DNA of 64,000 nt, taken from Leucoraja ocellata. Its lineage: Eukaryota. The position numbers were made by a program, and so were the translations under genes. The notes under the pieces are model-generated. The model searched no databases, was not told the DNA's origin, and worked only from the letters and a program-made list of their open reading frames with translations. Below are positions 31,320 to 64,000 of the stretch, in pieces; position 1 is the stretch's first letter; every line of letters starts with the position of its first letter. The stretch is taken from NCBI GenBank assembly GCA_036785375.1, contig JAWMAR010000030.1:7192001-7256000 (forward strand), given 5' to 3'.

Positions 31320-31420
31320 GAGATTACATGAAGAAGGGTCCCAACCAGAAACGTCACCCATTCAATTTCTCCAGAGATGTTGCCTGACCCACTGAACGTC
31401 TCCAGCACTTGGCGTCTCTC
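31320..31420 (+). mobile_element. pLTR-derived unit in the NDNF-like 3' UTR, sense orientation
   Basis: ATGAAGAAGGGTCCCAACCAGAAACGTCACCCATTC...GATGTTGCCTGACCCACTGA. Confidence 0.7.
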
Positions 31421-33387: not shown

Positions 33388-33672
33388 TTTAGTTTCGTGA
33401 TACAGCGTGAACAGGCCCTTCAACCCAGACTCCACGCCCACCATTGATCACCCATTCACACTAGTCTGTTATCCCACTTTCACATCCAATCCTTGGACAC
33501 TTGGGGCAATTTACAGAGGCCAATTAACCTATAAGCCTGCACATCTTTGGGATATATGAGAAAACAAGAACACCCATAGGAAATCCAGTCACAGGGAGAA
33601 CGGGCAAACTCCACACAGACAGCAGGCGAGGTCAGGATTGAACCCAGGTCCCTGGTGCTGTGACGCAGCAGC
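33388..33672 (-). mobile_element. HE1-like V-SINE
   Basis: Reverse complement of the 5648-5930 family. Confidence 0.8.
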
Positions 33673-39989: not shown

Positions 39990-40130
39990 TTAGCTGAGCA
40001 GTTGTCGTATCTCCTTGTGCATATGGCATAGAAAGTCCACGTAAGAGGCTCCACCGTTTGAACTCTTGTCCTCCATAAGAAAATGCTTGAAGAGCACCTC
40101 CATCTTGTCTTCTTGCTTCACTATCAAGAG
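39990..40130 (-). CDS. SEC24C: SEC24C last coding exon
   Basis: [49 protein letters not shown]. Confidence 0.95.
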   Translation of the reverse strand, partial: LLIVKQEDKMEVLFKHFLMEDKSSNGGASYVDFLCHMHKEIRQLLS

Positions 40131-43100: not shown

Positions 43101-46100
43101 CCATACCAAAGGACGGATCATAAAATGTAGGGCCATGGTATTTGCTGAAGTGTGTTAGCATGGATTGAGAACTAGTTCTCCCATAGAAAGCAAACTTAGT
43201 ATATCGGTCTCTTTCAAGTTGGAGGGCAGTAACTAGTGGAGTTCTTGGCCCTCTAGTTATATTCATGATCTGTAGAAGGGAACAAATGCAGCATTCCTAA
43301 ATTTGGCAATATGACAATAGATGGAAGGGCATGTTGTAATGAGTGCATGGTGCTGTTGCAATGGCACAAAAGAGAGATTGGATGAATGGTCAAAAATATT
43401 GTCAAGTGGAATTTAAAGTCAGGTAGTGCAAGTTCATTCACTTTGGTAAGAGAAATCAGAAGGCAGGTTATCCAAATGGAGAAAGATTGCAAATGGGTTA
43501 GGTCTACGTGTTACAGTGCATGTTCAAAGGATTAGCAGGCAGGTCCAACAAGTATTTCATGTGGCAAACGGCAAGTTAGCCTTTATTACAAACGAGTTGA
43601 AGTTTAATAATAGGGCGGTTTTGATACAGTTCCACAGCATGATGAAGGGGGCCACACCTGGAGTTATGTGGGTCGTATGACTTTAAAAACACAGTAGCAT
43701 TGGGGGCAGCCCAAAGGAACGTCACCAATTAATTCCTGGCTTTGTCCTTTTCAGAGAGGTTGGACTAGTTAGATTTGTATACCTTGTAATTTAAAAGAAT
43801 GAAGGGTGATTTTTTTTAAACATGGAATATCTTTATGAGGCTTGACAAAGTAGATGCTGATATGTTTTCACTCGTGAAAGCATCAGGAACAATGGGATAT
43901 AGCTACGAAATAAGAGGTCAATCATTTAAAACTGATGCAGACATTCTTTGTAACATGGAAACCCATGGAATTCTCTACCCTTGAAGATGAAGACCAAATC
44001 ATAAGTGTTACGTGAAAATAAATATTTGAAAGTTTGAAGAATTGTGGGTCAGTGGGAAATGGCACGGGGGAAGGAGCAGAGGAGGCCAGCAAAGATCAAC
44101 CATGATCATTGGGGCAACGTAACAGAAAATTGAAGTAAACCTTGTAGGAAAGGGTATCGGCATTTCACTGCAGCACAAAACCATGGATTGTACATTAACT
44201 ACATGAATTGTTACTTACCACAGGTAAAACCCTAGGGTAGAAGAACACGTTGGTTTCAGATACATCCATACTTGCAATGAGGTGACGGATGTAGGCCCGA
44301 TCGTCAGTAGAAACGTCAGCTCCAGGCTGTAGAATATCACTCTTCAATACACAGTTCAGGTACACAGGCAGTAGCTTCATGCACTCTGGTAGAATCAGCT
44401 AGGAAAAAAGGTACAGCAAGAAAGGTATAGTGAATAGGCCAGGGGTGGACTCATTGGTTGTAATTGGGCTAATGAGCTGGTCAAGCAAAGATTCTACCTG
44501 GCCTGTCTGTGACTGCAGTTCCATAGCAATTCGGTTGACTGCTAAACGTCCTCTGAAATGGTCTAATGAGCCACTCTATCAAGGGGCAATTTGAGATGGG
44601 CAGATCACTTATTAGTAATACTAATTTCCAACACAAGAATTTTATAGAAAATTACAAACACTTTGGAGAACTGGCACTTGTTGCTTTACAGCTGAAAAAG
44701 TAAAGGGAATCGGAATGAGGTTTCATGTTTTGAATGTGGATACAAAGAAGTGCAGGTGTTGATTTAAAAAAAAAGACAAAGTGCTGGAGTAACTCAGTGG
44801 GTTAGTAGGCAGCATCTCTGGAAAAAATTGAGAGTTTCATTTCAGGTTGGGACCCTTCTTTAGAAGAAGCGTCCCAGCCAGAAACGTCACCTAATTCATG
44901 TTCTCCAGAGATGCTGCTTGACCTGCTGAGTTACTCCAGTACTCCGTGTCTTTTCAGGTTTAAAATTACTATTTCTGACTGGGTAAGTTGTTAAACATCA
45001 GAAAGCTGGTGAGAGTGCAAAACAAATCACTGCACAATATGGCTATTAATATAAAAAAGACCCACAAGGGAATCCAGATAGGATCAATGATTTGGTTGAA
45101 TGCAAAGACCTTCAACTCCGAGGCTCTACATTTTTCAACTGATTTTTAATTGGGTTTCCAATTTTTCCTCACATCAAGAGTTCCCTCTTTGCGTTACAGC
45201 TGATGCCACACATCTGGTGTTGTCCTCTCCTTCCAGTGCCACCCTGACATTTGCAGGGGCTTATTCAAGAAGTTCCAGGTAAGGTGTCGAGTACATGCTC
45301 CCATCCAATCAAGAACAAAAATTTAGCACGCAATCTGTATTAATATTTAAACAGCTTCAACAAATTATGTTCTTCACAGAGGGAAATTAAAGCAGGGGAA
45401 TCATCTGGTGCAAATATTGAATTACAGACATTTAGGTTAGTTTAGAGATACAGCATGGAAACTAAGTCCACATTGACCACCGATCTCCCGTTCAACTAAT
45501 TCTCCGTTATGCCACTTTCTCATCCATTCCCTACATATAATGGGTTTTTTTGGGGTTTCTTTTTTACTGGGGTCAATTGGTTTACAAAGCCACACATCTT
45601 TGGAAGGAAACCAGATCATCCAGCAGAAACCCAGAGGAAGAATGGGCAAACTTCACACAGACAGCACCAGAGGTCAGGATCGAACCTGGGTCTTTGATGG
45701 TGAGAGGCAGCAGCTCGACCAGCTGCATCACCCTAGGATAATCAGTTACATGTAAAATACAAGGAACAAACGAGATTAAAGAAAGTGGCAAATGTGGAGA
45801 AAAGCACCAATGCAGCATTGTTAATGATAAATTCACAAGATTTCATTAGAAATGCTCCAAAATGCCAGTACAAAGACTATCACGCTCATGCTATGTTCCT
45901 CTCTAAGTATAAGGTGTAAAAATCACATAATAATCTTGTTTAGTAGTCATGTAACAAAAATCCTGGATTCCAATGTTTTAATCCCACCAAGGGAAAATTA
46001 AATGGGAATAATGAATCTGAAATGAAAGGCCAATAAGCACAAAACTATTGGATTGTCATAAAACCAGATGTGGTTCATTAATATCATTTACAGTTCAATA

Positions 46101-49100
46101 TTTACTTATCAAAATAGTCCTGACAAGGCATTCAAGGGGAATTGAGGAGGTAATAAACGATGGTCTTGTCAATAACACTGACCATCGGTGAATAATAACC
46201 GAAGTAATTACAATCTACATTTGCAAAATAAAACTCTTACCTGTCCGGCCGAAGATGGACTTGCACAATTCTTGCGGTAGCACGCCAAAATCTGAGCAGA
46301 CTGGTTAATTAAGGACTCTCGTACAGTCTTTGTGGAGTTATTCAGAACAGCGCGATAAGCTGCAAATAAGACATTTGAACCGTTAGATAAACTGCATGAA
46401 CAACATGACAGTACATCGAGAATGGAAGGCTTCAAAGTAATATATGCTGTGCAGATCAATATCTTAATCCAATTAGTATTCTGACACAATCTGGAAACCA
46501 TCAAGTTTCCCCTCAAGGGAACATGGATGATAAGTATCATCATAATTCATTGGGGTTCACTAATCCTCCATGCTGTTAATATGCTCAAGTGTTGATAAAA
46601 CACGAGGAAAATTATTTTTATTTTTACATTTATGAAGATGATGAATAAAAGAACAAAGATTACTGGATCTAGGGAAAATATATATTTTTCATGTTGCTAA
46701 ATAACCTTTCCAATTAATTGCTGTGTAGAACATAAATGCAAGGTTTCAGGGGGATTGTTTAAGGAAAGAAAAAAAAATGATGCCATCAATTCTGGCAGAA
46801 AATTAGAAAATTTAGCTCAACATTTGAAGAGTTTAGCTATTCAGAGACCAGGTATGCTTGTACATGGTTCAATAGGAAAGCAATAAGGAAACTACATCAT
46901 AATTAGAAAAAACTGTAGGTTGTACTTTACAACAATCAGATCAGAACACAGTAAATATGCCTTGCTGAGAGGGACAGACGGAGACCAAATACGGAATTGC
47001 ATGTCTAGTTCAGGTCTTCCTACCCAAAGATGAAGTGTATTAGAGAGATTACAGTGATAGGATTGGTAGGATGGGATTGATTTCTGCAAAGAGTGATTAA
47101 ATAGACGACCTATAATCTGTGAGTTTGAGAAAAATGGTAGGTAATCATAATGAAAATGCAAGTTCACTTTAGGGCTTGAATAATCACACATTTCCCCTGG
47201 TTAGTACTGGGGGGGGGTCCAGTCACAAAACAAGGGATCAATCAATCAGGACCTAAATGAGAAATGTCTAGTCAGATGCTGGTGAATAGTCTAGGAGGCT
47301 ACAGATACATAGGTTAGTATGGGTGTGTGATTGTGAATTAAAGTGGCAGTCCTACAGACTGAATGGAACTGGTCTCCAAAGCAATGAACCAATCTGCCTT
47401 TGGCCTCTCTATCATAATGGAGATCACATTTTGGGAAAGAGTCTGAAGAACAGGTGTTGTGTTTCCTGTAGTTGTATGGGCAATGCCATAAGGCAGTAGT
47501 AGGTGGGGATGGAAGAGTGGAACAAGGATCATGAAGGTATCTGGGAGAATGAAATGGACCTAGGGGGAGACAGGGTGGGAGGAAGATAACTGTGGGAGCC
47601 TGTACTATCTTATCACTTGGAACAGATACAAATTGTCTAGAAAAGGTGGAAATTGGCAGTAAGAAATGAGACAAAAAAATGAGTTCTACTTCTGAAAACT
47701 AGCTTTTATTCCTATTTCGGACTATTGTGAAAATTCTCGTATGTGAAACATTTTTTTTTCCCCATCCGCAGATGCGACCTGGCCTACTGCTTGTTTCCAC
47801 CGCTGTATTTCAGATTTCCAATATTTTTTAATCTTCCTTGACTGAAGCCTAATGGTCTACTCTTGTTATTATTTATTATGTTTAGCACTGTTCACATATA
47901 GCAAGAGAAGCTTCATCTGCTGCATTTAGCCTCAGTAACCTAGTGTCCAAACACATGCACATTAGTAACAGACAAAAGAAAAGCTGCCTTCGGCACTGAC
48001 AAATTAATTACAAAATAATTTAAATTTTAAAACGATTTACTGTTACACATGCAATGTATTGCATGAATGTACTGTTGACCTTTGAAAATAATGTTTTCTC
48101 AATTCTTCTTGAAGCAATAAGAATCCTGCCTGATAACACACATACAACTTGAAACATCTTTACAGAGAATTTCTCTGCACGAGCTTTGTTCGAGGAAACA
48201 TGATCTGGCAATAAAGGTAGCAAAGCAAAACCAACATACTAAATAGCAAGCATCAATTAGCTGGGCAACAGTACTTTTTTTATCTAGCTAATAAATTACG
48301 TGAATCTCAAGGATTTTTCAGGATTCTCTGTTTGACTCAATGGACATTCATTTTAAAACTGCACATTAAATTAAATTTGAGGAATAGATGGGTTTTGCAT
48401 GTAATGAACTTGGGGTAGCTGACAATTATTTGAAACCAGAATCCAGCCTTGGATTTTGATGAATGGTTTCTATAGCCAACTGTGGTGTCACTTTTCTCTT
48501 TCACCATTCATCTTCTGTGGGTGTCAAATGGAGGTCGATTCCATGGCACAGGGGCCTCTTTGGGTAATGCAGAGTGGGCATCGCTCAGAAATGCAGGTAA
48601 TCAGTCAGTCTGGACAGAGTCTTAGAACCACGCAATCTTATAAAACCCATCTTCTCCTCATGCACAATGGATGTGCTTTGCTTAGAGAGAATTGAGAATT
48701 GACATGCAGGTGTAGCAGGCAGTAAAGAAAGCAAATGGTATGTTAGCTTTCATTGCAAAAGGATTTGAGTATAGGAGCAGAGAGGTTCTACTGCAGTTGT
48801 ACGGGGTCTTGGTGAGACCACACCTGGAGTATTGCGTACAGTTTTGGTCTCCAAATCTGAGGAAGGACATTATTGCCATAGAGGGGGTGCAGAGACGGTT
48901 CACCAGACTGATCCCTGGGATGTCAGGACTGTCTTATGAAGAAAGACTGGATAGACTTGGTTTATACTCTCTAGAATTTAGAAGATTGAGGGGATCTTAT
49001 AGAAACTTACAAAATTCTTAAGGGGTTGGACAGGCTAGATGCAGGAAGATTGTTCCCGATGTTAGGGAAGTCCAGGACAAGGGGTCACAGCTTAAGGATA

Positions 49101-52100
49101 AGGGGGAAATCCTTTAAAACCGAGATGAGAAGAACCTTTTTCACACAGAGAGTGGTGAATCTCTGGAACTCTCTGCCGCAGAGGGTAGTCGAGGCCAGTT
49201 CATTGGCTATATTTAAGAGGGAGTTAGATGTGGCCCTTGTGGCTAAGGGGATCAGGGGGTATGGAGAGAAGGCAGGTACGGGATACTGAGTTGGATGATC
49301 AGCCATGATCATATTGAATGGCGGTGCAGGCTCGAAGGGCCGAATGGCCTACTCCTGCACCTAATTTCTATGTTTCTATGACATACCCTTTCCCTCAAAA
49401 TAAAGTTACATCATTTTACAAGGCAAGGTGAATAAAGTTGTGCCGAAGACATCTCATTATTAAGCACATAAATACAATTTTGGAATAAAGCCAATTTAAG
49501 CAGCAGCCTTACCCATTTTTACAAAGAAGTTGATAAGTGTGTCGGTCTCACAGTTTCTGTACAGGTCAGCAAGCTGAGTACAGCAATTAAGGGAAAGGTT
49601 GTGTATGCGTAGCCTCCTCTGTCCACTGCAACTGGTGTAGAGCAAAGCACACTGCAGGAGAGAAAGGCGAGAAATAAATGTTTTCAGCAAATGCACGAAT
49701 ACATAAAGCTGCACAGATACCAAAATTTACTTGAGGGAAAAATCAGAAAAATGTGGTAATGTGGAGAACGCAAAAACAGACTAGCATTTAAAAAAACACC
49801 TTTTGCGTCCCTTTTCAAACGTCCCAAAACACCTCACAGCCCAACTCAATGCTTACTAAAACCATGGTCATTTTTGTAATATAGTCAATTCACGTACAAC
49901 AGCTTTGACAAATGGCAACATCATAATCATATGATCTGCTTTGGTGATGGGAGATGAGGGGGATATTGGGGCTGGGACACTTGGGCACCTCCCTGGCCAC
50001 CCAGAATAGTGCCAGATCTTTATATATCCACCTGAGAGAGCAGACAGGAGATCTCAACCAAAAACACACTATTTATCAATTCCTTCGCTACCACAGTGGT
50101 GTCCGATCTGATTCTTTCCTCCAAGTGTCTGGAGTAGCACCTGAACCTACAAACATTGATCGTGCTTTTCATGGAGCTTTAGCTTCCAAAGTACTTGCAA
50201 CTCAAATTGAATATGAATACAAATCAGTGCATTGATTGATGTAAAAATAGGAGCAAACCTAATAGTAACTTAAAAAAAAAAAGTCCAAATTAACAGGAGG
50301 CAGGGAAAATATACAGAGGCATGCAAAGTGCTGTGGAGTAACTCAGCAGGTCTAAAATTACTAAAATTACTTTCTAAGAGGTGGAACATGCACAACAGAT
50401 TTAAAAGCTGTCAAAATGCTGGAGTAACTCAGCAGGTCAGGCTGCATCTCTGGAGAAAATGGTTTTCCAGAGATGCTGCTTGACCGATTTACACCACCAC
50501 TTTGTGCCTTTTTTTGAAAACCAGCAGCTGTTTCCTGCGTCGTAGGATTTCACTACTCAGCTTTTAGTTTTGACCATGTCCATCAGCCTACTGGAATATT
50601 TAAATGGCCCCATGCACTAGAAATGCAAGCTGCAAATTATCCACCGTTATACAATAGCAAGGCATATTTTACAAGTAGAACTCAATTGAACGAGGGTGAA
50701 GAATTCACATTAATACAAATCAGCCTTTGTCTCTGTAAGACTGAGCATTAAGTGCCAGGCCAGAGTAGTCTTGAGTACAAAGATCTACACTGACATTCCT
50801 GTGAACTAATGAAATCAGATAAAACGTTAAACCAAAGTCCAACTGCTCTCTCTCTCTCATGGAAGGACAAGCAGTGTAGAGTTCTTTTAGGGGATCAAAG
50901 TGTCTCTGAAATTCCACTCAGCAATTCCTCAATCAACAAGCTCTTCGTATTATCTGGTCCTCACCAAACTACTGTGTCGAGATTCTAACTGTTTCTCACA
51001 TTAGCTATTGCACTTCTTTTAAAGTATATTTAATCAACGATGCAAACAAAATAATATAACTGGGTTAATAACAAACGAAGTACGCCACAGTACAATGTGC
51101 TCAATTGTAGAGTGCTCTGGTCAAAGTACTTAGTCCAGATCAGATTACACAGATGGAGAGCATATATTCATGTTATGGTGGCAATTCACTGAGGCCTACA
51201 GTAGATATTAGAGAGCAGAGTTATAAGCAAACAATGAAAATTGTATTTTTATCCTGACAATGACTAGGATGCATAAATGAGGTAGTTAAATACCAATCAC
51301 TAATAATGTGGTCAGTAGAAAGCTGTAGTGCCACGATTCTGAAGATGGAATATCAATAGTAGTGGACCCAGAGAACTAGGTACAGGAAAGGAGTGGCAAG
51401 CGGCATCACCAAATAAAATAATTCAAAATTCCCCTAATTTTTAAGCATTTATAAATCTTCAAAAAAGCTACAAGTTTAAAATGAAGTAGTCACAGCAATC
51501 ATGCAAAATTCTCACCTGAATTTGAGCTCCACTATCTTCATTCAATTTATCATCGTGTTTGAATTCCACCGTGATGGTTTTATCACAGTCTAATGCCGCC
51601 AACTCCACATCAGTTGTGTTACTCATGTAGAACGAGCCAAAGAAATCAGTTGCTCTAATCCCTGGAATCAAAGCAGTTTATTTTCTCCAGATGAAACACA
51701 CAGAAATGAGCTTCAGTCTCCACTTATCCAACAATTAATCTTAACTGTTACATCTGCAGGTTTTGTTTTGTTTTTTAACTAGCACAATCCCACAATACAT
51801 ACCGCAGCAGGAGTCAGGCATCAAACATAAATATCTAGTGCCTCAATAGGAATTCTTTCCACAAGAGGGTTTCATTTTCACTGATTACAAGGCAAAAGTG
51901 ACAACACAAATTTACAATCAGGAAATAAATATTTAAGATGGTGTATATTCTTGAAATAAAGCTGAATTCCTTTTAAACACCAAATAGATTATTTTTTGGC
52001 TAATAACTGAGTAAGATACAAATCAATTTTATTATTCATCCGACACAAATGCTTTCAGATTAAAACCATATAAGACTGGCAGCATCATCAAGGACCCACA

Positions 52101-55100
52101 TCATCCTGGCCACACACTCATCTCCCCGCTACCTTCAGGTAGAAGGTACAGGAGCCTGAAGACTGCAACGTCCAGGTTCAGAAACAGCTTCTTCCCCACA
52201 GCCATCAGGCTATTGAACTCAACTCAAACAAAACTCTGAACATTAATAGCCCATTATCAGTTTATTTGCACTTTATCTGTTTTATTTACTCATGTGTGTA
52301 TATATTTATACAATGGTATATGGACACACTGATCTGTTCTGTATTCATGCCTTCTATATTCTGTTGTGCTGAAGCAAAGCAAGAATTTCATTGTCCTATC
52401 TGGGACACATGACAATAAAATCTCTTGACTTGACTATCAATAATACAACGCATTTCCACTATCAGCACTTTGCAGATTAGTTTCTGTTGATCACCATTTA
52501 ATTTTGAATAATTCAACTTACATTCAGAAGCTTATGTTGCTATTTAATGCAACTATTCATACCTATAAATTGGAAATGCATACTAGGTTCAGCAACATAC
52601 ATGCATGAAAACAAGTCAGTGGCTGGGAAAGCATACTCCTTGAGAAACATTTTTAAGTGCAAAGGTCACACAAGTATGAAGCTGTTGAATTTGTACTCTG
52701 GACTATCACCTCCTCACAAGATAATTTCAAAACATATACCAATTATAGTATATCAATTAACAAACCAACATACCTGTACTTGTGCGCACCCTCATCACAG
52801 CATCAAACCCAATCACTTTTCTAACATCTCTGTGTAGATCATTTAGGAATCGCTCACCATCTGCTTGTGCCTAGTTGGAGAAAAAATACTTTAAATATCT
52901 GCACATTAAGAAAATGCTAGTTGGTTTTGCTTTTCAAAGTTTAGTTTAAGTAATTCACTCGGAATAAAACTACTTGATAATGAGCTTGCAAAAAATTAAG
53001 GGTAGAGAATACGTATAGTTGAATAGAACACAAACTGGGAATTAGTCAGCATGCTCAGGGTTAAATAGCCTGAGAAAGAAATGAAAGGTACAATTTATTC
53101 TAATGTTCAGATACCAATGCATTTATTGTCCTTGCTTCATTTATTGCTTTTTTCATGACAACTAACATCATTAATTCAACAATTTAAAAAATATATATAT
53201 ATTCAAAACAGGTTGTGTAATTAGATTATGGATGTAAAAAACTGGATCGCCAATCCTTCAGCTGTCTCCAAAAACAAATTATTGTTTCTCCAATAAAAAT
53301 TTTAAAAAGCATATGAAATACCAAGGAAAAAGTAAAAATAAATACAAAGAGAAGCAGGGATAAATCACTTAGCTCCCATGTCTGCTAGGCAATAAGATTG
53401 AATTTTGGTGGTGATTTAAAAAACTCTTCACTAGTTCTAATGCAAAGAAGCTCAGCAATCATCAGTGAAGCAGATGGAATTTTGTACTGCAATCAGTCCA
53501 GGGTTACATTAACGGTTCCATTCCAGAGAATGATTTCTTCGCAAGCCAGGAGTGTTCATTTTTTATTGCTATCCATATCATATTGTTCTTGATGCACTTA
53601 ATATTATTTCTTCATTTCATTTAATAGTCAACCTCACACTACCTAGAATTAAACTATTGGCATATATACTGTATCTCATCATTAATGAATATTATGAAAC
53701 AAAGCCCTAAAAATGTGCAAACTTGTGCAAAGTCAGATTTTGTAAGTCAGCTTATCTTAACCTGGGGAACCCTGTGGTTCCACATTACCGTTAACATTAG
53801 CTTTTTAAAGCATAATTATTTAAATATTAAATTTTAAATTATCTGGCTGTCAGGCCTTTGGATATCAATCCAGTCATTTAATGATTCCACTGCACCAAAC
53901 ATTAAAAGCTAAACCACTTCAGTGGTCATGGTCTGGAGTAACATGCAGGTCTGAAAAAAACAATTCTTCCCCTCAGTGAGCTTCATCCACATGTATGACA
54001 ATCTGGTAGCAGTGTCATATGGCAGATCACAATTATGCATTTCCCAATTGCTGCGGCAGGATTTATACTTGTGCAACACACATCAGATTGTCAACGAGCT
54101 AATAATCAAAATGCTATCATTCCACACCAACGTGTACTGTTACTTTACAATTTAAACTAGGTGATAATCTAGTACAATGATGAGAGCATGACAGCATATA
54201 CACTGCAGACCAAAAGAGGCAACTGGAATTCCAAACTGTTCCTTAACTCTCAAGACCCGTAACATTTCTCCAAAAAACATCAATTTAACTTTTCCCGGCA
54301 ATCTCAAAATACAAATGAGAGTTATATCAATGAAAGTTCTTGCTAGTTGGAAGCTGACATGGTATGGCCTAGAAAGTCTAGGCTGTATTAATTCCATTCC
54401 GACAGAATGGGTGGGTAAAATTATCCAAATCCCACTGCATGCTTGTGGCTTGCTCAGAGCTTTCGAAACGCAATCAAGTTCTCTCTCTTTACAGGCAGCT
54501 CAATAACCAAGCATTGGGTACAGATTCTCACCGACACAGAGGGAAAGCTAAATGCTTTGGCTGTTTGTGGCATTATTTAAGTATGTAAGAGCAATCCCTG
54601 GACAAACAAATAACAGCAGAAAATTCCCAAGGGGAATAACAGTTTCAACCCTTGAAATATCCTTGGTTGCAACAACTTTGGAAAGAGCTTGCAAGGGCTT
54701 TGTAATGGAAATTACCCACAGCTGTTTCATCCAATCAGCAGTACAACAGGTACAACCTGCACACAATACTCCGAAGGAATCTGAATTCCACAGGCACAAT
54801 AGACCTAGATGTTTCCAGAAAAATGGGTATTTTTGCTCTCAAATCCTAAATTAAAAAAAATATTTATGCTGCAGTTTTTTCCAAGTAATGAATCTCCAAA
54901 TTAGACCTACACGTCAGTTATCTTTTAATAGGCGAGCGCATTACTTGTGACGTGAAGAGTGCATGTTTCTCAGAAAAGTTTGATAATTTTACATTGATGA
55001 GGCCACTTCTATACCAAGCCTTTGTGAATGAGAGCTGCAAAATTTCTCTACAACTACAGTAATCCGACAAACATTACCTGGAAGTATGTGTACTTGTAAA

Positions 55101-58100
55101 TGGAACCTCCCGTCTGATATGTAACCAGTCCCAAGGTTGCCACATCAACATATTGATTAGGGAATAGGAAGAGATCCACACAGCAGCCTTGTGCCACACA
55201 CTCCTTGGCCAGATTATTGTAAAAGCTGGTCTGAGGTTGAAACAGCGTCTGCAATAAAGAAATACATACAAACAATATAAAAATTGTGTTGATGTTGAAA
55301 AGTAGAAAAAGTGCTAAAGTAGCATATGTTTGGAGTTAACATTTCAGATCAAACAATTAAAGATAAAAGACAAAGAACAGAAGGAGGTGGGGAGAAAACA
55401 AAAACATCTGTGATGGAACAAGGGGTAGAAGAGATAACAGGATAAAAGATAGCAAAAGAAAATGCAATCTGGGGGATTAAAAATTAATAATGACGATGGA
55501 ACATGGAGTCAGTTAAGACTGCCAGAAATTCTGATTATCCGCAATCATTTTCTCAATGTCATGGCTGTCATATACCGAGTCAGAAAGTGAGCACAGTTCA
55601 TTAAGCTTACATTGATTGCAAGGAGAAAGCAGAGTGGGACCAAGATTGATAAGTGTCTTACCACTCCTGTAAAAACAGGAAATTCAGTTGTTTTAACATT
55701 TTTAGGCAACATTCGACAAAATTATCTTGAAGCCTGAAACCTTAAAAACCCAATCCGTCAGAGGCATTTGAATCTGCCTTTCCCCAGCCGAATGCTGATT
55801 CAGCGCCCTCATTGATTCAGATATTCAAAGAACAAATGTTTTAATAAGCTGCTCAGAAAATACAGTTCTTCAAATACCACTACCTCGGAAACAATGAACT
55901 TCAAATAATGTAAACCCATCTTTAAAAATATCCTACAAACCTTTTCTTTGTCTGTGTTGATTAGCTTCTTGTCATCTCTATTCTTTAGCTTTCCAGGCGC
56001 TTCAGCAAGAGGCAGGGTGGAGTGGAATATAAACAGTTTGCCAGCACATTCAGCTGCCTGCAAATACAAAATGTCATCAGCACCTTATTAATCAGTGGAC
56101 TGAAGGGTCTCGACCGAGACGTCACCTATTCCTTCTCTCCAGAGATGCTGCATGTCCTGCTGAGTTACTCCAGCTTTGTGTCAAAGTGAGATATTCCACC
56201 CGATTTGCTACCAAAATGCAGATTCTGAATTGGATATAAAAGGGAAACTTACCTTGAGGGCTTCCAGGCCAGCTTGAATAACAGGTCCAAAAACTGTCTC
56301 AGTTTCTCTGGTATCACCAAACATTTCAGGAATCTGTTCTAATAAACTGAAAATAATAAATGGATTTTACTTTAAGCCAATCAGCAAGACTGCAATTCAG
56401 TTACATTAACTGTATTATGGAAATTCAATTGTCAATACCAATATTGAACCAAACAAATCTGCTCTTTTGCATTTTGAGCTGTTAAGTCATTTAATTTTAA
56501 GGTACACGGATCTGGTTTTGATCACACAATCCAAAGGTCACTAATGCAAACTGCACAACGGCAAATGATAAAATCAAACTATGCCGAGAATTCATCAAAA
56601 GCAGTCTTGAAATCCGGGCAGCTGAAAATGAATTCCTATCCATGCTGCAGAATTGGAGCAGTCACAGAATGAAGGGACAGCAGCTATAACTCAGCAATTG
56701 CAAGCCTCGACAGCTCCCAAGAGGGTGTACCTGTTTTCATTTGCCACAGCAACTGGGGAATCCTGCATGCCATGGTTACTCCCCTTTCTGCCAGTCACCC
56801 ACCTTTGCTGTAAAGTTTCAAATTTCAGATCTTTTGACTCATGATTCCAATTACCCCAATATCATAGAACAGGCTTCGTAATTTCGCAGAGTTCATGGGT
56901 GCAGTGAAATAATCACTCAAAATCTTACACTAGTGTATTCTGCTGTGTAATGTTTTTGTAAGTAGTTTTCTAACATGACACTATAACATTCTCACAAGAT
57001 GGGTTTCTTACCTGTTTATCACAGCCCGTGACTCATTCACATTGACCAGGAATCCATCAAGCAAGGGCACAAACATGTCAGCTACATCGGACACCACCAT
57101 CATTTGTGGCTGAGCTAACGAGCTCTTAACATTGTAAAAATGTAAAACTTTGTTATATGTTACAAAGCCAACCCTTATTGCAGATTCGTCTGCATTGCCC
57201 TCCCTAGAAGAGAAACAAGAAATTCAAACTCATTCATTTTTTTAGCACTAAGTTTGAAATTGCAAAGGCCCTTAGTGTAATGCCTTAAATGTACTCTATG
57301 CTTGAATATGGGTAATGCACAAGCTATAATAATGGTCACAAAGCAATATTAATGCAGATGAGACTTCCAAACAGGCAGAAAAAAAGTACAATATGATGAA
57401 TAATTTAAAATTAAAGGGAAATATGATGCTGTGTCTCCGAGGGGTACAAGAAACATTTAAGTGTGTAGGAAGGAACTGCTGATGTTGGTTTAAAACAAAG
57501 ATAGACACAAAATGCTGGAGTAACTCAACAGGACAGGCAGCATCTCTGGCAAGAAGAAATGTGTGACATTTCGTGTCAAGATGAAGTCGGGTGGTGTCGA
57601 CCCGAAACGTCACCCATTCCTTCTCTCCAGAGATGTTGCCTGTCCCGCTGAGGTACTCCAGCATTTTATGTCTACCTTCAAGAAACATTTAATATACATT
57701 AAGCAAAACACAAATTGCTAGAGGAATTTAGTAAATCTGGCAGCATCTGCGGAAGCATGGACAGGGCTGGAACCCTTTTGGCCAGGAATCCTTCTTCAGT
57801 CTAAAGGAGCATCTCGACCCGAAACATCACCTGTTCATTGCCTCCACAGATGCTGCTCTATATGCTGAATTCCTCCTGTACCATGTTTTGCTTAAGATTC
57901 CATCATCTGCTGTTCCTTATGTCTTCATTTTTATATATTAGTTGTCTCAGTCTGCACACCACACAAGAAAAAGGGCAGAAATTTATCATCATATCAGGGA
58001 AACTGCAAAAATGAGGTTGCTCACTTTAAAAGATTAATAAAATAATTTTCCTTTTAAAAGTGTTTAGTAGAATGGATGGTAGAATGGATGGTATCTTTCA

Positions 58101-61100
58101 GCAGGTCTTTTAGTTAGACTTTCTTGATGAGAAAATGTAGAGAATCAATAGTGACAGTAATTTCCCTTTATGCAGAAACAGCAAAATTATCTTACCTTGG
58201 AAGGAAGTCCAACAGAGTTTTAAGCTCCTCACATAATAGGTGAACCAGCCCACTTTTCAGTGCATTGTAGGATACATCGATCATAAAGATGAATGCAGGT
58301 GGATTAGGAAATTTATTATTCTGTAAAATAAATCCTTTTTAAGTTACAATTGAAGAATCATATGTCCAATTCAGCAAAACCCTTTGCATCTGTGTAAGCA
58401 AACACTGCCGAGACTGAAGCATGTATATTAGAGCTGCACCAATTATGATTACTGTCTGCAATAGAAAGATTAAAAATGGGGACAACCAAACTTCATGGCA
58501 ATGTTCTGCTGAAGCTATACCCGCAGGGGTACGCCCTGATTTTTATCTCGACAAAAAAAGGAATAAATGTTTAAAAACAAGCAATATCTCGGTCTTCTCA
58601 CTCTCATAAAGCCACCCACAATGGATGACATGACAATGGTAGGCATACCAGCAGAAAAACATTTGAAAATGTTAATACATTGCCATGTTGCAGCTTTGGC
58701 TTTGAGCCACTTTTATCCAAATACATAAATAGACATTGAAATGTGTATGAAGAAACTGAAGATGCTGGTGTAAACCAAAGATAGACACAAAATGCTGGAG
58801 TAACTCAGCGGATCAGGCAGCATCTCTGGAGAGAAGGAATGGGTGACGTTTCGGGTCGAGACCCTTCTTCAGACTGACGTCAGGGGGAGGGAGATAGATA
58901 GATGGATAAGGAAGTGTGAAGGTTTGAAAACAGGGCAAAAAGAATGGAGATCAAGGAAAATGTAGAATAGATTGTTGTTAGCTGGGAGAAGGTAACAACA
59001 AAGCAAACAGATAAAATGTAGTCGGAGACAGTAAGATTGGTCAGAGAACTGGGAATGGGAGGGATGGAGAGAAGGGGAAAGCAAGGGTTTCTTGAAATTA
59101 GAGAAGTCAATGTTCATACCGCTGGGGTGTACGTTGCTCAAGTGAAATAGGAGGTGCTGTTCTGCCAATTTGTGCTGGGCCTCACTCTGACAATGGAGGA
59201 GACCCAGGACAGAAAGGTCAGTGTGGTGAGACACAAAAAGCTGGAGTAACTTAGCAGGATAGGCAGCATCTCTGGAGAGAAGGAATGGGTGACGTTTCAG
59301 GTCGAGACCCTTCGGGAATGGGAGGGGGAGTTACCCGCATCAATTAAATCGACGTATTATTTAAAGCCATGGGGTGCAATTTGGAAAGCTTGGATTAGAT
59401 CTGCCGAACAGGTATTTATATAAATAAAACCCTTAGATTTTACTCCAATGATAGGGGTTTGCAGATTAAGAAATAGGTAACATGTATGGAATACCTTGCA
59501 GTAGTCTACAGTGGCTAAAAATTCATAGGAACCAAGTGACAGTTCTGGTCGATCGTAGTAGTCCATTCGCTTGCCGGTGTGATCCAAATGTTGGAAATAG
59601 TGAGGCAGTACTGAGGAAGGAGAAACAGGAGTTACAATGTGTTATTGGGTTTGCTAGAAAGGTAGGATGGGAACCAGGACAAGTCATTCACATTACAATA
59701 AACCTAAAAGCACTTGTCACTAAAAATGTACAATTTCAATTTAATCGCAGCATAGAGATTAATTATTTTTAAGAATGTCAAAAATGATAACAAATCAAAT
59801 ATCTTGCAGGACAAAGAGTTAAGAGGTCCTGAACAAAGGCTGAAAAATGTATACACATACCCTCAATAGCTCCTGTATCAATGGGCAAGACAAGTTAGAA
59901 GGAGGGCATATAATCTCCGACATGTTCAGAAGTTAGTATTAGCATGGTGCTACACTCTGCTCTTTCATTCTAGTTTTTCAAGAACATGACATGAGGGAGA
60001 TACAATTTGAGCAAAAAAATATAGCTCTCCTTCTACGAGTTACCTTCTGTGACACAACTGCAAAATGCACATTGGAATCTGCGCCCTCCTTCAATAAACT
60101 GCATGTAAGGACACATGTAGGCCTTGCACCTATTGCACCGTATAGGGCCAGTCTCTCCATGATCTACAATGAAAGGGTGTGCCTGCAATTTGAACAAAGA
60201 TAAAAAAACTTCAGTACAGTTCCACAACTAAGCGCTTCAGAAAATGAAAGACATTAAAGTAAAATACATTAAAAACTGCATCAACCTGGAAATAATTTGC
60301 ATTGGACTGAACAAAACCTTTTTTAAGTATCATTTAAAGTAAGCGTATTTATATTGCACTTTTTACATTCACTTCTTCATTTTCTGTGCAATTGCTTCCT
60401 TACATGTTTAAACAAGTCAACCATTTTGTTGGTAACAAGATCATCATTTTGGGTGGCGTTGGTTAGGGATAACAGGTAACCAGTATACCACGATAATTTC
60501 CAAACTCATCAAATTGTACAATCAAATCATGAACAACCATACAGGACAGAAGGAACCTCAGTTTAACAACTAAACTGCAAGACCCCACCTCTCCTGTACC
60601 AAAGTGATCATCAAACAAAACAAGTCCAGTCACGGATACATAATAAGGCAAAATCAGAATGCAATTTCTTCAAATTTAAGGGACCAACAATCATGAACTC
60701 AATCTCCAAATTTCGTTATAGCAGAATAACTGAGAACTCATCAAAAAACGGAACCCTCGGATTTTACAGCTGTGACTACTAACCTTAATGTAAAGTTAAT
60801 TCATGTTTTCAGTCTGAAAATTCTTAATCTACTCCAAATTTATCTTTAATTAAAGAGTAAAATAAGTGTATTAACTCCTTCTAAAAAGTGCATGATATAC
60901 AATTTTGAAATCTCCAAACCAATGTGCTGAGCAAGCCACTGGAGCAAGCCATGGTGTCACTTACAGTTTTTGGATTCATTTCAACAGCTGCAGCAGACAA
61001 AATGGAATCATCATCACAAAGAACTTGAACAAAATATGGCTTTTAATTGCTACTTGTATCAGTATTGCTTCAGAAAGATTGTGCATTAAGTGTTGCTAGG

Positions 61101-63197
61101 TTGATATTTCCTCAGCAAATACCCTATCATTCTCTTTAAATGAATTGATATGTGTTCGATAGCTTGCCCTAACAAAACTATTTTCTGTGTGGTGAACATG
61201 GACTTAATTTTTTCCTTGCCATTAAAAGTTTTATTGAACCGGATAGCTAAATTTAGAGTGTTTCTACAGACAAAAGGTTTTTCTACCCCATAACTGGGGT
61301 TCAATGCTTGTTGTTGGCACGTTTAGCAGCTGCCAGTACACAGACATACTCAAATACAGGCAGATCCAATTTCAAAGGTTGAATGTGGAAAGAGTGACAA
61401 GTTCACTACCGTGCTTCGCTTCAACTGACCTACAGTAACGCTCCCGGCTCAGAAATAGAAGAGTACAAGGATGCATTATTTAAGTTATAAAATCCCAACT
61501 CTAAATGAAATAGAGAGCAAGTGAATTTGCCTGCATTTCTTGTCCCATCAGTCCCAGGATAACCATAGCAACACTGTCATGAAACAAATTAACTCAATCA
61601 CTGACAACCCGCAAATCAAACTATTTAAATTACGAGACAATGGGCTCCACATAAAGTTTGGATCCATTTGATTTTCTAGTTTACTTTCTTTTACCTTGTT
61701 GATAGCATCGACTGCAGGGTAATGCCAGTAAGATACTTCCCAGAAAGTCTGCCATGAAGCCAATGTTCATCTGCACAGAATCACGCAATGGTTGCTCTCC
61801 AACCAGAGGCTTGAGCTCACTCGAGCTCAGAGAGACGTCATGAGAATGTTCAACAGTCGCTTCAATCCCAGAATCTTGCCCTGTCAGAAGTCCATTGCAG
61901 GTGGAGCCTCTCCACACATGCACACCTCAAGCTGGGCTATTTGCCACAACTGATTCTCTCCTCCTTGCTTTTACTTAAAGTAACCACATGCAAAAAGTGA
62001 CTCATCAGCTACTCATAATGGGTCTAATTCCTAGTTGGAGGGTTCATCCAATCAAGGTTAATACTAACACATATGCTTTTCAGTACTTCAGTTACCACCT
62101 TCTCAGTGTTAAAGATGCTTTAGTATAAAATACACATGACTGCAAACAGAATAAAAAGTAGCGCCCGCTTTTAAAAGGAATATAGTTTGAACATTCCATT
62201 CATTTGGGAGTTTGTAGTGCAGATTACCTCATCAGCTGGCAGCGTGGCAAGTGGTTTTATGACTGTAGTGAGGGGAACCTGACATTGTTTTGCCATGTCT
62301 GAAGTGCAAGGTATATTGTAAGTTGCACATCGAACAAAACGAGGACTTGCATTCCCTGCAAGAGAACAAAATAAGTTTTATTCTCCGATGAAATCAAAGT
62401 TTTACCTTATAAATGCACTACTAAGGAGCCGTTTCATTAGTAAACCTCCATTTGGTACTCTTTTTCATTGATTTAATAAAAACAAAAAAAACTTAATTTA
62501 CAGTATTTTTGAGTGCTTCAATTGTATGTAACATACATCATACACTGCAAGGAAACAGTGATCTAAAACATTCGTAGGTTGGTTTGAAAAGAGAAAAAGA
62601 TTGGCAAGTAATCACAACTGTGGACAAAATAACACACACATTTGCTAGTTACTTTGTTGGCTAAAAGCCACTGAACTGTAAATTGAGACATACAATTCTT
62701 GAATCATTGATCCCATTAATTTTTGTTTTTCAGAAGTCTCTATTACATCAATGTGAACATCACCCAATATTTTTACAACCGAGACATATTGACAGATGTA
62801 GGTACATCTTGAATTAGGTTAAAGGCCCGTCGGCTCAACTCATCTATGCCAACCAAGATGCCCAATCTAAGCGAGTTCCATTTGCCCATGTCTGGTCCAT
62901 ATCTATGGCCTTTCCTAGCCTCAACTACTTCATTTGGCAGCTTTTTTCATATATCATGTGTGGAAAAAGTTGCTCCTTAGGTTCCTATTAAATCTTTCCC
63001 CTCTTGTGTGAAAGAGGTCAATATGATTTGCATGCAAATCACAAATATGAAGGAATTTTGTTGAAGCTGAGCAAATTAAATCTACCTTGATCCTTTACCA
63101 CAAAGTCAGTCGTCACGAGTGGTGGCACTTGTCCTCTTACACCTGTCGAAAATGGTTCAGATCCTCGATTCGACTTATCATCCTCAATTACTTGGAT
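39990..63197 (-). CDS. SEC24C: SEC24C, COPII coat cargo adaptor; 3' 17 coding exons (partial gene, 765 aa)
   Basis: The exons sum to 2298 nt, giving IQVIEDD...zinc finger [10 protein letters not shown]...trunk domain...[11 protein letters not shown]. Residues match recalled human SEC24C closely (e.g. [54 protein letters not shown]). Confidence 0.95.
40696..40899. mobile_element. Fold-back pLTR mini-element with 15-bp TSD, in the last SEC24C intron
   Basis: ~74-bp arms (40731-40804 and 40827-40900); TCCAGGTACGGAATG (40681-40695) and TCCAGGTAAGGAATG (40900-40914). Confidence 0.85.
41267..41356 (-). CDS. SEC24C: SEC24C exon
   Basis: [30 protein letters not shown]. Confidence 0.93.
42135..42326 (-). 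CDS. SEC24C: SEC24C exon (gelsolin-like region)
   Basis: [40 protein letters not shown]...IDSGM. Confidence 0.95.
43000..44110 (+). mobile_element. Old degraded CR1 LINE
   Basis: Residual GATATAGTGTATTTAAATTTCACAAAAACATTTGACAAG (VYLDF.KAFDK-like), GCCACACCTGGAG and TGGAATTCTCTACCC motifs. Confidence 0.7.
44219..44398 (-). CDS. SEC24C: SEC24C exon
   Basis: [60 protein letters not shown]. Confidence 0.95.
44736..44951. mobile_element. Fold-back pLTR mini-element
   Basis: Inverted arms; degenerate flanking duplication TTTCATGTTTTGAAT / TTTCAGGTTTAAAAT. Confidence 0.75.
45437..45735 (-). mobile_element. HE1-like V-SINE
   Basis: TTAGTTTAGAGATACAGCATGGAAAC tail and CAGACAGCACCAGAGGTCAGGATCGAACC head, reverse complemented. 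Confidence 0.75.
46241..46359 (-). CDS. SEC24C: SEC24C exon
   Basis: [40 protein letters not shown]. Confidence 0.95.
47291..47640 (-). mobile_element. Degraded PLE GIY-YIG fragment
   Basis: [24 protein letters not shown] resembles C.LLYIGETKRRLGDRF.EHLRSV. Confidence 0.55.
48695..49380 (+). mobile_element. Young CR1 LINE 3' fragment
   Basis: [25 protein letters not shown]...[11 protein letters not shown]...[13 protein letters not shown] (one frameshift), CR1 3' UTR and (TTTCTATG)n tail. Confidence 0.92.
49513..49651 (-). CDS. SEC24C: SEC24C exon
   Basis: [46 protein letters not shown]. Confidence 0.95.
49800..50150 (-). mobile_element. Ancient DeuSINE/SacSINE1-like relic
   Basis: GTCCCAAAACACCTCACAGCC...CCACCTGAGAGAGCAGACAGG motifs; similar relics at 20470-20650, 28900-29040 and 40190-40450. 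Confidence 0.45.
51516..51661 (-). CDS. SEC24C: SEC24C exon
   Basis: [49 protein letters not shown]. Confidence 0.95.
52077..52435 (+). mobile_element. Rex1/Babar-type LINE 3' end
   Basis: [46 protein letters not shown] followed by an AATAAA...(CTTGA)n tail; related tail fragments on - at 26636-26760 and 9990-10170. Confidence 0.85.
52774..52870 (-). CDS. SEC24C: SEC24C exon
   Basis: [32 protein letters not shown]. Confidence 0.93.
55078..55248 (-). CDS. SEC24C: SEC24C exon
   Basis: [57 protein letters not shown]. Confidence 0.95.
55941..56057 (-). CDS. SEC24C: SEC24C exon
   Basis: [39 protein letters not shown]. Confidence 0.95.
56253..56346 (-). CDS. SEC24C: SEC24C exon
   Basis: [31 protein letters not shown]. 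Confidence 0.95.
57012..57203 (-). CDS. SEC24C: SEC24C exon
   Basis: [63 protein letters not shown]. Confidence 0.95.
57461..57678. mobile_element. Fold-back pLTR mini-element with perfect 14-bp TSD
   Basis: CAAGAAACATTTAA at 57447-57460 and 57679-57692 flank inverted pLTR arms; a second, older fold-back follows at 57705-57925. Confidence 0.88.
58196..58320 (-). CDS. SEC24C: SEC24C exon
   Basis: [41 protein letters not shown]. Confidence 0.95.
58742..59335 (-). mobile_element. PLE 3' fragment with two pLTR copies (58745-58875 and 59229-59313)
   Basis: [25 protein letters not shown]...[13 protein letters not shown]-terminus; the pLTR contains CTGAAGA-AGGGTCTCGACCC-GAAACGTC. Confidence 0.85.
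58842..58875 (-). ncRNA. Minimal type I hammerhead ribozyme motif in the pLTR (best-conserved copy)
   Basis: The - strand reads GT-CTGAAGA-A-GGGT(CTCG)ACCC-GAAA-CG-TC-AC: CUGANGA and GAAA cores, stem II, palindromic ACGU in place of stem III, and a GUC site. Helix I is only 2 bp. Confidence 0.6.
59495..59610 (-). CDS. SEC24C: SEC24C exon
   Basis: [39 protein letters not shown]. Confidence 0.95.
60044..60182 (-). CDS. SEC24C: SEC24C exon (zinc finger)
   Basis: [46 protein letters not shown]. Confidence 0.95.
62228..62355 (-). CDS. SEC24C: SEC24C exon
   Basis: [43 protein letters not shown]. Confidence 0.93.
62810..63005 (-). mobile_element. CR1/HE1-type 3' tail fragment
   Basis: AGGCCCGTCGGCTCAAC...CCATATC...GGCAGC...CCTATTAAATCTTTCCCCTCT; similar fragments at 16385-16600, 21935-22015, 31755-31880 and 36265-36390. 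Confidence 0.6.
63086..63197 (-). CDS. SEC24C: SEC24C exon
   Basis: [37 protein letters not shown]; GT-AG boundaries. Confidence 0.93.
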
Positions 63198-64000
63198 CTG
63201 TTACAGCACACAATACAATATTTTAGTCATTTATTAAAGTTCAAGCTATCCATTATCATTTGTAGAGATGAATAGATGCACTATAAGCTGGTATAAAAGG
63301 ATGAGCAGCCAATTCCACTATGTAACATTAACTAACCACTTAAACCTTTGCTAACAGTCTTGTGAATGCGTGTGCTGCCTGAGCCATAAATGGCCTGGAA
63401 GCTAAGTTTACAAATCAACATTGGATCATAATTGCCTTTAGCACTCCTAACATGCCAAGAGTAAAGAATTCAGCCCAAATTCCCAATTAATGTTCAGTGA
63501 TAACTGTTCAAATGCAAAGGTTTACACGATCGCGCGTTCAACTGTGGTAGCCTCTCCACCCTGCTCACAGTGTCTATTGTCTCAATTAACCATTTGGACA
63601 GTGTACCAAATAGGTTTTTGATGCCTATGGAACAACACAAAAGCACTAAAGTGAATATCTAAAGTGTGCAACACAGATGAATTAGAAAAAAGTGGCAATG
63701 CTTGGAAAGGACAGGGAAAGTAGAAAATCCATTACGCATCGAATCTAGACTTGCATTACACCAAACATTTGCCAGTCAAAGGTATCTCAGACTGGATCAC
63801 TGAAGAGCCTCCAATAGGAGAAAAACTCATTCAGCACCTGCTTTTCACTGAAAAAATTCAAAATAAGTACATTGATTTTATGCGGCCACTAAAATTAATT
63901 CTAAAGAGTCATAACAGCACATAAGTACCAATAATTAAAGTCGCAGCTAGCTTTCTCAGTTAGCTTGATTTTGGAATGACATATAATGTCCATTCTAAAA

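What the first reader, a model, noticed from the sequence alone, without database searches (positions are those of the whole stretch)
58842..58875. Dispersed minimal hammerhead-ribozyme cores in Penelope pLTRs, many inside SEC24C introns
Seen: the abundant ~130-bp repeat contains CTGAAGA-A-GGGTCTCGACCC-GAAA-CGTC. It is clearest at 58842-58875(-) and 3612-3645(-). Variant or partial copies lie at about 16310, 16735, 21140, 22180, 28525, 31325, 33695, 34200, 40590, 40800, 44840, 56100, 57595, 57800 and 59290. The same repeat terminates the GIY-YIG PLEs at 3512-4805, 16665-17990 and 58742-59335. Known: PLEs carry minimal type I hammerheads whose very short, palindromic helix III is thought to work as a dimer, and an extra A after A9 occurs in some natural hammerheads. 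Inference: this genome is seeded with latent self-cleaving motifs at roughly one per 4 kb. The 58842 copy is sense to the SEC24C pre-mRNA. Caveat: helix I is only 2-4 bp, so many copies may be inactive.
Basis: partly seen in the sequence, partly recalled or inferred. Interest (0 to 1): 0.7.

Follow-up and report, generated by a model that had tools for sequence, protein, structure and literature searches.

The report
Penelope hammerhead fossils in SEC24C introns
The repeat is the end piece of a known jumping gene (a Penelope-like element) with a tiny hammerhead ribozyme motif that is broken in most copies and likely does not cut the host SEC24C RNA; its short copies mostly start just before the motif rather than at its cut site, so they were likely copied from uncut RNA.

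Summary
The motif is real at 58845-58872(-) and 3615-3642(-). It is the minimal type I hammerhead of a Neptune-type Penelope-like element (PLE), a published kind. Full-length tandem copies with a 1233-aa RT/GIY-YIG frame exist in this genome. The 58842 copy is sense in a SEC24C intron.

The 'one latent ribozyme per 4 kb' claim fails. Repeat arms occur every 2.4 kb, but only 35 of 529 sampled arms (2 of 29 in the window) keep core, stem II and ACGU, about one per 38 kb genome-wide. CpG core positions decay freely and stem II shows no compensatory excess. The intronic copy has no intact sense partner and is predicted to misfold.

The useful signal is in the copy ends. Short copies start 2-3 nt before the core (5,510 genome hits) and show no excess at the cut site against two controls (31 vs 24; 56 vs 94). 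They are likely run-off cDNAs of uncleaved RNA, primed internally at two sites about 36 nt apart. This scan has noted the same start pile-up before, in this genome and others.

The parts
58842..58875 (-). Minimal type I hammerhead motif: AGU, CUGAAGA, extra A, stem II GGGU/ACCC with CUCG loop, GAAA, CGUC; predicted cut between 58845 and 58844; helix I 2 bp. The only intact sense core in SEC24C
58742..59335 (-). 5'-truncated Neptune-type PLE as a partial tandem: core-less arm 59313-59226, last 43 codons of the endonuclease 59222-59094, pyrimidine-rich 3' UTR, pLTR arm with tail 58878-58744
   Evidence: run X20 (organism D) has contigs crossing both outer flanks into it (table 8)
3513..4858 (-). 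5'-truncated, frameshifted Neptune-type PLE (RT C-terminal part, CxxC linker, GIY-YIG) with ~14-bp target duplication; intact core at 3615-3642 with GUU site; outside SEC24C
16647..17123 (-). 5'-truncated PLE (endonuclease end, 3' UTR, pLTR) with a broken core
16208..16380 (.). Head-to-head pair of arms, cores broken
21102..21266 (.). Head-to-head pair, core broken
22107..22330 (.). Head-to-head pair; minus arm has G12 changed to A
40697..40914 (.). Head-to-head pair in a SEC24C intron, cores broken; predicted long hairpin (-129.7 kcal/mol)
44768..44971 (.). Head-to-head pair in a SEC24C intron, cores broken; predicted hairpin
50412..50523 (.). Short head-to-head pair in a SEC24C intron, no core
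57465..57692 (.). Head-to-head pair in a SEC24C intron, cores truncated; predicted hairpin
57691..57884 (.). Old head-to-head pair with junction at CTTCAG-T-CT, cores broken
1630..1721 (+). Solo arm beginning 2 nt before the predicted cut site, no core
7957..8069 (-). Decayed solo arm
8909..8974 (-). Decayed solo arm, no core
28512..28625 (+). Solo arm, core broken
31329..31434 (+). Solo arm, core broken
33668..33729 (-). Arm with pyrimidine-rich upstream sequence; CUGAAGA kept, ACGU broken
34123..34242 (-). Arm with a short inverted partner, no core (the Rfam mir-5595 look-alike hairpin)
40510..40612 (-). Decayed solo arm, sense in the last SEC24C intron
56102..56196 (+). Solo arm, antisense in a SEC24C intron, core broken
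39993..63200 (-). Host gene SEC24C, coding exons within the window (the gene continues about 12 kb beyond the window end); exons around the finding are 59495-59612 and 58195-58320

Best explanation
The repeat is the hammerhead-bearing terminal module (pLTR plus tail) of a Neptune-type Penelope-like retrotransposon; its dispersed copies, including those in SEC24C introns, are decaying insertions that were likely copied from uncleaved RNA and likely do not cut host RNA. Shown: in full-length tandems the module sits between one 3' UTR and the next ORF; short copies run from 2-3 nt before the core to one of two 3' ends (+93/94 or +129/130), many with 9-14-bp target duplications; about a third of arms are head-to-head pairs; 93% of arms have lost the core. 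Inferred: the element RNA begins at about the A or G of TCAGT, an initiator-like site. The element's protein nicks DNA and primes reverse transcription inside the RNA at the tail sites; when it uses the tail nearest the 5' end it runs off after 95-132 nt, giving solo modules, and two such cDNAs join head-to-head at self-complementary spots. Inferred: the ribozyme is kept in the source elements for a step of their own cycle and would need a partner copy and probably the element's protein. After insertion it decays neutrally. The one intact sense copy in SEC24C would be a tolerated passenger.
For: Full-length 3946-bp tandems with a 1233-aa open frame, RT, CxxC linker and C-terminal GIY-YIG, module just before the ORF; window elements are 62-72% identical in protein. 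529 arms in 1.244 Mb; 85 head-to-head pairs vs 8 tail-to-tail and 5.6 expected. Of 96 young arms picked by their 3' block (about 9 are near-identical duplicates), 19 start at -2/-3, 42 at -6..+3 and 4 (2 events) at the cut site. Genome counts: 5,510 starts at -3/-2; cut-site starts 31 vs 24 at a control position once palindromic junctions are removed; GC-overlap junctions 56 at the cut site vs 94 at a control GC. Top loose ends in public runs fall at -2, -3 and -5/-6. Target duplications and 1-4 nt microhomology at -2. Decay and lack of covariation. Stem II probability 0.01 in context; active dimer -6.1 vs best dimer -27.5 kcal/mol. A contig from run X1 joins the three exons across this intron. 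PMC11167929 reports internal priming at two sites, uncleaved RNA as the main substrate and protein-assisted cleavage for a Poseidon PLE.
Against: The RNA start is not shown: there is no cap data, and no clear extra G marks a copied cap (16 of 44 junctions, about 13 expected). The RT, GIY-YIG Pfam scores lie just under the curated cut-offs. Core positions are slightly better kept than the 3' blocks (p=0.05, driven by A). Folding models ignore tertiary contacts and proteins. The sense, core-less arm 440 nt upstream keeps ACGUC-ACCC and could serve as a substrate strand. A second haplotype-like copy, 97.7% identical, also keeps the core, though chance alone gives that about 58% of the time. Whether the organism of run X1 carries this insertion is unknown. 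Cleaved RNA may simply be degraded, so missing cut-site ends do not show that cleavage never happens.
Confidence: 0.78

Rival explanations
1. One reading: dispersed intact cores are latent ribozymes that cut host pre-mRNA such as SEC24C at a low rate, as dimers or half-dimers or with help from the element protein, and so act on host expression.
For: About 91,500 intact cores genome-wide; the 58842 core is intact and sense; a possible substrate strand lies 440 nt upstream; the repeat is abundant in polyA RNA of a relative; xenopus retrozymes are under-represented in introns (bioRxiv 10.64898/2026.07.22.740005, passage).
Against: 2-bp helix I, predicted misfolding; no intact sense partner in the gene; neutral decay; no pile-up of read starts or ends (table 6; 6% of one polyA run); monomers inactive and dimers weak in vitro (PMC4209133); arms in SEC24C are 8 sense and 7 antisense.
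Confidence: 0.1
2. The sharp 5' edge is not a transcription start but another fixed event: a 3' splice site (pyrimidine tract then CAG) or a stop of the RT where the C-rich tract begins.
For: All subfamilies have a pyrimidine tract then CAG before the core; in D. virilis Penelope an intron ends at the 5' end of helix I (PMC4209133).
Against: Most copies keep the G at -2 (71% vs 20% background) and many the A at -3, which splicing would remove; no shared upstream exon is seen among 103 solo copies; copies with target duplications show only short microhomology or a few extra bases there.
Confidence: 0.2
3. The short module has become a self-propagating SINE-like or palindromic element with its own master copies, rather than a repeated by-product of full-length element RNA.
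For: About 1.5 million arms by extrapolation; recurring ends; some solos carry a copied CTTCAG junction remnant.
Against: Short copies match the subfamily variants of long elements base for base, and their starts and pair junctions vary copy by copy; such repeats in RNA continue into unrelated sequence in 97% of reads.
Confidence: 0.12
4. The conserved letters are not a ribozyme at all but promoter or protein-binding DNA/RNA signals that resemble one.
For: No Rfam hit; no two-sided covariation; the 3' blocks are as conserved as the core; D. virilis Penelope has an internal promoter with an RGACGTGY element (PMC2377424, passage).
Against: Every core letter, G10.1-C11.1, the extra nucleotide and the ACGU palindrome match the published consensus; family-level changes fall in loop II or keep pairs (U-A to U-G, H17 C or U); a PLE hammerhead was shown to cut with C3/G8 rescue (PMC11167929).
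Confidence: 0.07

Closest known systems
[quoted passage not shown]
   Same: Core, extra nucleotide between 9 and 10.1, G10.1-C11.1, palindromic 15.2-16.2 with no loop 3, place in the pLTR, mostly dispersed single copies, some opposite-strand pairs.
   Different: Shorter stem II (4 bp) and helix I (2 bp); little variation and no two-sided covariation among families here; about 91,500 intact cores against 4,000-9,000 reported for coelacanth and Xenopus. Cartilaginous fishes are not named in the two parts read; the supplements were not read.
Poseidon_Ac of Anolis in vitro (Frangieh et al. 2024, PMC11167929)
   Same: Two internal priming sites that bound the tail, both strands nicked and extended, uncleaved RNA as template, no RNA-seq ends at the cut site.
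   Different: Here the element is Neptune-type and the ATG lies about 165 nt downstream of the core, not in stem II. The fixed 5' edge of short genomic copies is not described in the main text read.
EN+ PLE insertion architecture: partial tandems, inverted 5'-truncated copy, tail, solo pLTRs (PMC8557442, PMC3846280)
   Same: Partial tandems, head-to-head inverted copies with palindromic junctions, optional 30-40-bp tail, target duplications, an initiator-like motif in the pLTR.
   Different: Those passages ascribe solo pLTRs to recombination or deletion and junction palindromes to self-priming on an antisense template; here many solos have clean target duplications and a fixed start.
Non-LTR retrozymes of animals (bioRxiv 10.64898/2026.07.22.740005)
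   Same: Non-coding, pLTR-derived, type I hammerhead; reported in one chondrichthyan.
   Different: Retrozymes are head-to-tail tandem arrays with an intact ribozyme in each unit; these copies are solo or head-to-head and mostly broken.

Membership tests
PLE minimal type I hammerhead | CUGANGA and GAAA boxes with NUH site | tested here: met
   58845-58872 and 3615-3642; met by 35 of 529 sampled arms only
PLE minimal type I hammerhead | Stem II with G10.1-C11.1 and an extra nucleotide after A9 | tested here: met
PLE minimal type I hammerhead | Palindromic 15.2-16.2, helix III possible only in trans | tested here: met
   ACGU in both main families
PLE minimal type I hammerhead | Helix I closing the core | tested here: inconclusive
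   2 bp (U-A or U-G; G-C) then A.C in 130 of 178 full arms; predicted probability 0.00
PLE minimal type I hammerhead | Compensatory changes among families | tested here: not met
   Only one-sided U-A to U-G; C-G not in excess. One pair tested, one genome
PLE minimal type I hammerhead | Self-cleavage as a dimer or with protein | not testable with these tools
   Indirect only: no excess of cut-site ends in the genome, no read-end pile-up
EN+ Penelope-like element, Neptune type | Single ORF with RT and C-terminal GIY-YIG with CCHH | tested here: met
   1233-aa frame; RVT_1 E=1.4e-6 and GIY-YIG E=0.012, both under the cut-offs; IKPADKG and LIYCVRCSRCQQIYIG seen directly
EN+ Penelope-like element, Neptune type | CX2-5CxxC linker between RT and EN | tested here: met
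   CGRSRCNTC in P0001 and CNRRKCNTC at 3794-4135; shared by Neptune and Nematis (PMC8557442)
EN+ Penelope-like element, Neptune type | Placement in the Neptune clade by RT phylogeny | not tested
   No reference sequences on hand
EN+ Penelope-like element, Neptune type | Partial tandems, inverted 5' copy, optional 30-40-bp tail | tested here: met
Non-LTR retrozyme | Head-to-tail tandem units, each with an intact hammerhead | tested here: not met
   No two intact same-strand cores lie near each other in the window plus 40 kb; pairs are head-to-head
Host-domesticated intronic hammerhead (recalled: amniote HH9/HH10 type) | Canonical monomer-active fold, conserved across distant species | tested here: not met
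   No helix III loop, 2-bp helix I, misfold predicted; deep conservation not testable, only close relatives seen

The most novel reading that the evidence does not exclude
This genome holds over a million run-off cDNAs that map the Penelope transcript start to the first base of the hammerhead's helix I. The ribozyme is then the very 5' end of a capped RNA, held off by a competing hairpin until the element's protein folds it, and the short modules are a built-in by-product of internal priming at the 5'-proximal tail. The ~90,000 intact cores in host transcripts could be switched on in trans when the element is expressed.
Probability: 0.3. Interest if true: 0.6.

Novelty: new member of a known kind. 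Interest (0 to 1): 0.3.

Why it matters
The role of PLE hammerheads is an open question (PMC8557442, PMC11167929). The copy ends here give genomic support for the in vitro result that uncleaved RNA is the template, and they predict a transcription start to within a base or two that CAGE can test. For the host gene the finding is ordinary: one intact but likely inactive motif in an intron. The long head-to-head hairpins in SEC24C introns are a likelier point of contact with host RNA machinery than cleavage.

Tried and rejected
Rfam scan: no hammerhead hit, only hairpin look-alikes. A fixed-spacing pattern with the wrong spacer gave chance-level hits. Cleaved RNA as template: two arms at the cut site looked suggestive, but genome counts with two controls showed no excess. 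Cap-derived extra G: suggestive (10 of 16 events), not borne out (21 G, 19 T, 11 C at -2 ends among the first 100 hits). Compensatory stem II family: rejected. RNA evidence: no RNA holder listed for this stretch; raw polyA reads of a relative gave no SEC24C exon coverage and no start/end pile-up in the 6% read. A-to-G excess in RNA over DNA runs: none evident from the change tallies. Intron orientation bias genome-wide: not done, no gene annotation on hand. Lunse et al. 2017 (dimer cleavage) is not held; it is known here only through PMC6765202. Look-up of earlier notes by sequence found nothing.

Full report
Observation. The motif is in the sequence as described: AGT CTGAAGA A GGGT CTCG ACCC GAAA CGTC ACC at 58875-58842 on the minus strand, and a variant with loop CTCA and a GUU site at 3645-3612. 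The exact 28-mer occurs 21,383 times in the 3.44-Gb assembly, the reversed control 0 times. A structure descriptor gave 41 hits in 644 kb, 39 of this family, against 0-2 in 10 shuffles. Rfam has no matching model. The assembly contains near-identical duplicated stretches (for example this region again at 97.7% identity), so absolute counts may be inflated; densities and ratios are less affected.

Host gene. Sec23/24 domains lie on the minus strand from 63200 down to 39993, best matching human Sec24C; the likely first coding exon lies about 12 kb beyond the window. The 58842 copy is sense in the intron between exons 59495-59612 and 58195-58320. A contig from run X1 joins these exons; whether that organism has the insertion is unknown. 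14 of 29 arms lie in SEC24C introns; over the coding span 8 are sense and 7 antisense. The organism is likely a cartilaginous fish; that rests on recall and on earlier scan notes, not on a test here.

What the repeat is. A search with the window's RT fragment gave 28,613 candidates. Of 20 fetched stretches, five are tandems with a period near 3.95 kb, and six carry open frames of 1221-1246 aa. [quoted passage not shown] The linker marks Neptune or Nematis elements (PMC8557442, passages). The module lies between one 3' UTR and the next ORF. Three window elements are 5'-truncated relatives, 62-72% identical in protein. Minimal dimer-type hammerheads in such pLTRs, mostly dispersed, are published (PMC4209133, parts 1-2 of 4 read, supplements not read).

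How many are intact. In 118 arbitrarily placed 10-kb stretches plus the window (1.244 Mb) there are 529 arms, one per 2.35 kb. Only 35 of 529 keep core, stem II and ACGU; in the window 2 of 29. Genome patterns give 43,418 cores with a U-A and 47,821 with a U-G closing pair, about one per 38 kb. Among 178 full arms, non-CpG core positions mismatch at 5.2% and the 3' blocks at 6.6% (p=0.05, the difference lying in A), while core CpGs (G12, C15.2, G16.2) are only 73-76% identical. That is close to neutral decay. A compensatory C-G pair is not in excess: 311 copies (0.65% of U-G) against 1,736 unpaired C.A (4.0% of U-A). Family-level changes do spare the core and fall in loop II or keep pairing, which fits selection on source elements only.

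Can the intronic copy cut? Not tested directly. Helix I is 2 bp. In a 140-nt context stem II has probability 0.01, because GAAGAAGGG pairs with the downstream CCCAUUCCUUC; the young family folds alike. The active dimer scores -6.1 kcal/mol against -27.5 for the best dimer; such models ignore tertiary contacts. No second intact sense core lies in the gene, though the core-less arm at 59313 keeps ACGUC-ACCC and could act as a substrate strand. Five of the 8 sense arms are locked in head-to-head pairs; the four pairs folded give -46 to -130 kcal/mol. Published minimal motifs did not cut as monomers and cut weakly as dimers (PMC4209133); the Anolis motif cut only with the element's protein (PMC11167929, parts 1-2 of 4 read). 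PolyA reads of a relative (6% of one run) show the repeat on both strands inside other transcripts and no pile-up of ends; this is weak evidence.

Where copies begin and end. Head-to-head pairs number 85, against 8 tail-to-tail and 5.6 expected; junctions often sit at CTTCAG(A/T)CTGAAG. Among 103 solo arms without element sequence upstream, identity to the element falls from 83% at -1 and 71% at -2 to background by -7. Among 96 young arms chosen by their 3' block, about 9 of them duplicates, 19 start at -2/-3, 42 at -6..+3, about 30 continue into the element, and 4 (2 events) start at the cut site, +28. 3' ends that match the reference subfamily cluster at +92-95 and +128-132; 44 stop matching at +90, where other subfamilies diverge. 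Genome-wide, 5,510 young cores start at -3/-2 (about 9,800 after correcting for the flank filter). At the cut site 100 hits pass a stricter filter, of which 56 (TAG) and 13 (CGG) fit palindromic junctions; the remaining 31 compare with 24 of 28 at a control position (counted by hand). The GC-overlap junction at the cut site (56 arms) is no more common than a control GC junction 13 nt downstream (94 arms; patterns not identical in length). The best-supported loose ends in the public runs fall at -2, -3 and -5/-6. Many short copies carry 9-14-bp target duplications with 1-4 nt of microhomology at -2, and two show a re-copied GAAGAAGG before the start, as expected if the RT ran off a template end (44 junctions). 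No cap-derived G could be shown.

Mechanism. Shown: anatomy, decay, fixed ends, lack of cut-site ends. From the literature: internal priming at two sites that bound the tail, nicking of both strands, uncleaved template (PMC11167929); internal promoter in the pLTR (PMC2377424, passages); initiator-like motif and palindromic inverted junctions (PMC3846280, passages). Inferred: the RNA starts at TCAGT (initiator consensus recalled), priming at the first tail yields 95-132-nt run-off cDNAs, and two of them join head-to-head. The ribozyme serves the source element at some other step, or rides along. Confidence 0.78; the transcription-start step alone is nearer 0.6.

Novelty. The hammerhead, its host element and the inverted architecture are known kinds. 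Two paper searches and the earlier ones listed no paper on chondrichthyan PLE hammerheads or on this fixed 5' edge, apart from one chondrichthyan in the retrozyme preprint (part 1 and passages read). Subscription journals, Repbase reports, Lunse et al. 2017 and unread supplements may cover it. Earlier notes of this scan, seen after my own tests, report the same elements and the same start pile-up in this and other genomes; they are not independent support. One note hints at cut-site ends; my two controls do not show an excess. Verdict: real, new member of a known kind, host-cleavage reading unlikely. Interest 0.3.

Noticed in passing
G000:C30:6.08-6.14 Mb (L305): A second, inverted copy of this whole region lies about 1.1 Mb away on the same contig, 97.7% identical over the 10 kb checked; similar mirrored pairs occur on C1 and C88. 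Likely both haplotypes in one contig, or segmental duplication.
   Followed up: partly
G000 small contigs, e.g. C567, C1035, C1159, C1199, C1481: About 40 copies of a multi-exon Sec23/24-trunk gene piece, most with two stops in the first matched stretch, spread over small contigs and repeated several times within some: an amplified Sec24-like gene or pseudogene array.
   Followed up: no
window 29555-30910 (+): 451-aa open exon of an NDNF-family gene (PF19433, PF10179), convergent with SEC24C and about 9 kb past its stop.
   Followed up: partly
window 58873-58900 (-): The pyrimidine tract plus CAG just before the core looks like a cryptic 3' splice site in sense orientation inside the SEC24C intron; the X1 contig skips it.
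   Followed up: partly
window 40697-40914, 44768-44971, 57465-57692: Head-to-head pairs would form about 100-bp double-stranded RNA in SEC24C pre-mRNA, possible ADAR or small-RNA substrates; no editing signal tested at locus level.
   Followed up: partly
window 58836-58869 (-) and L161:5457-5495: A competing hairpin (GAAGAAGG with CCUUC) that buries the catalytic core is predicted in both the old and the young family; it could be an off-state.
   Followed up: partly
L161-L166: A very young Neptune-type family with near-identical 3.95-kb tandems and intact frames; about 89,000 exact hits of its 3' block, suggesting recent activity.
   Followed up: partly
window 13181-13687(-), 17124-17990(+), 48716-49289(+): LINE-like (CR1/L2-type by recall) 3' fragments; no Pfam hit for the two tested.
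   Followed up: no
L336, L345: Insertions with a duplicated GAAGAAGG directly before GTCTGAAG, consistent with a template jump after the RT reached the RNA 5' end.
   Followed up: partly
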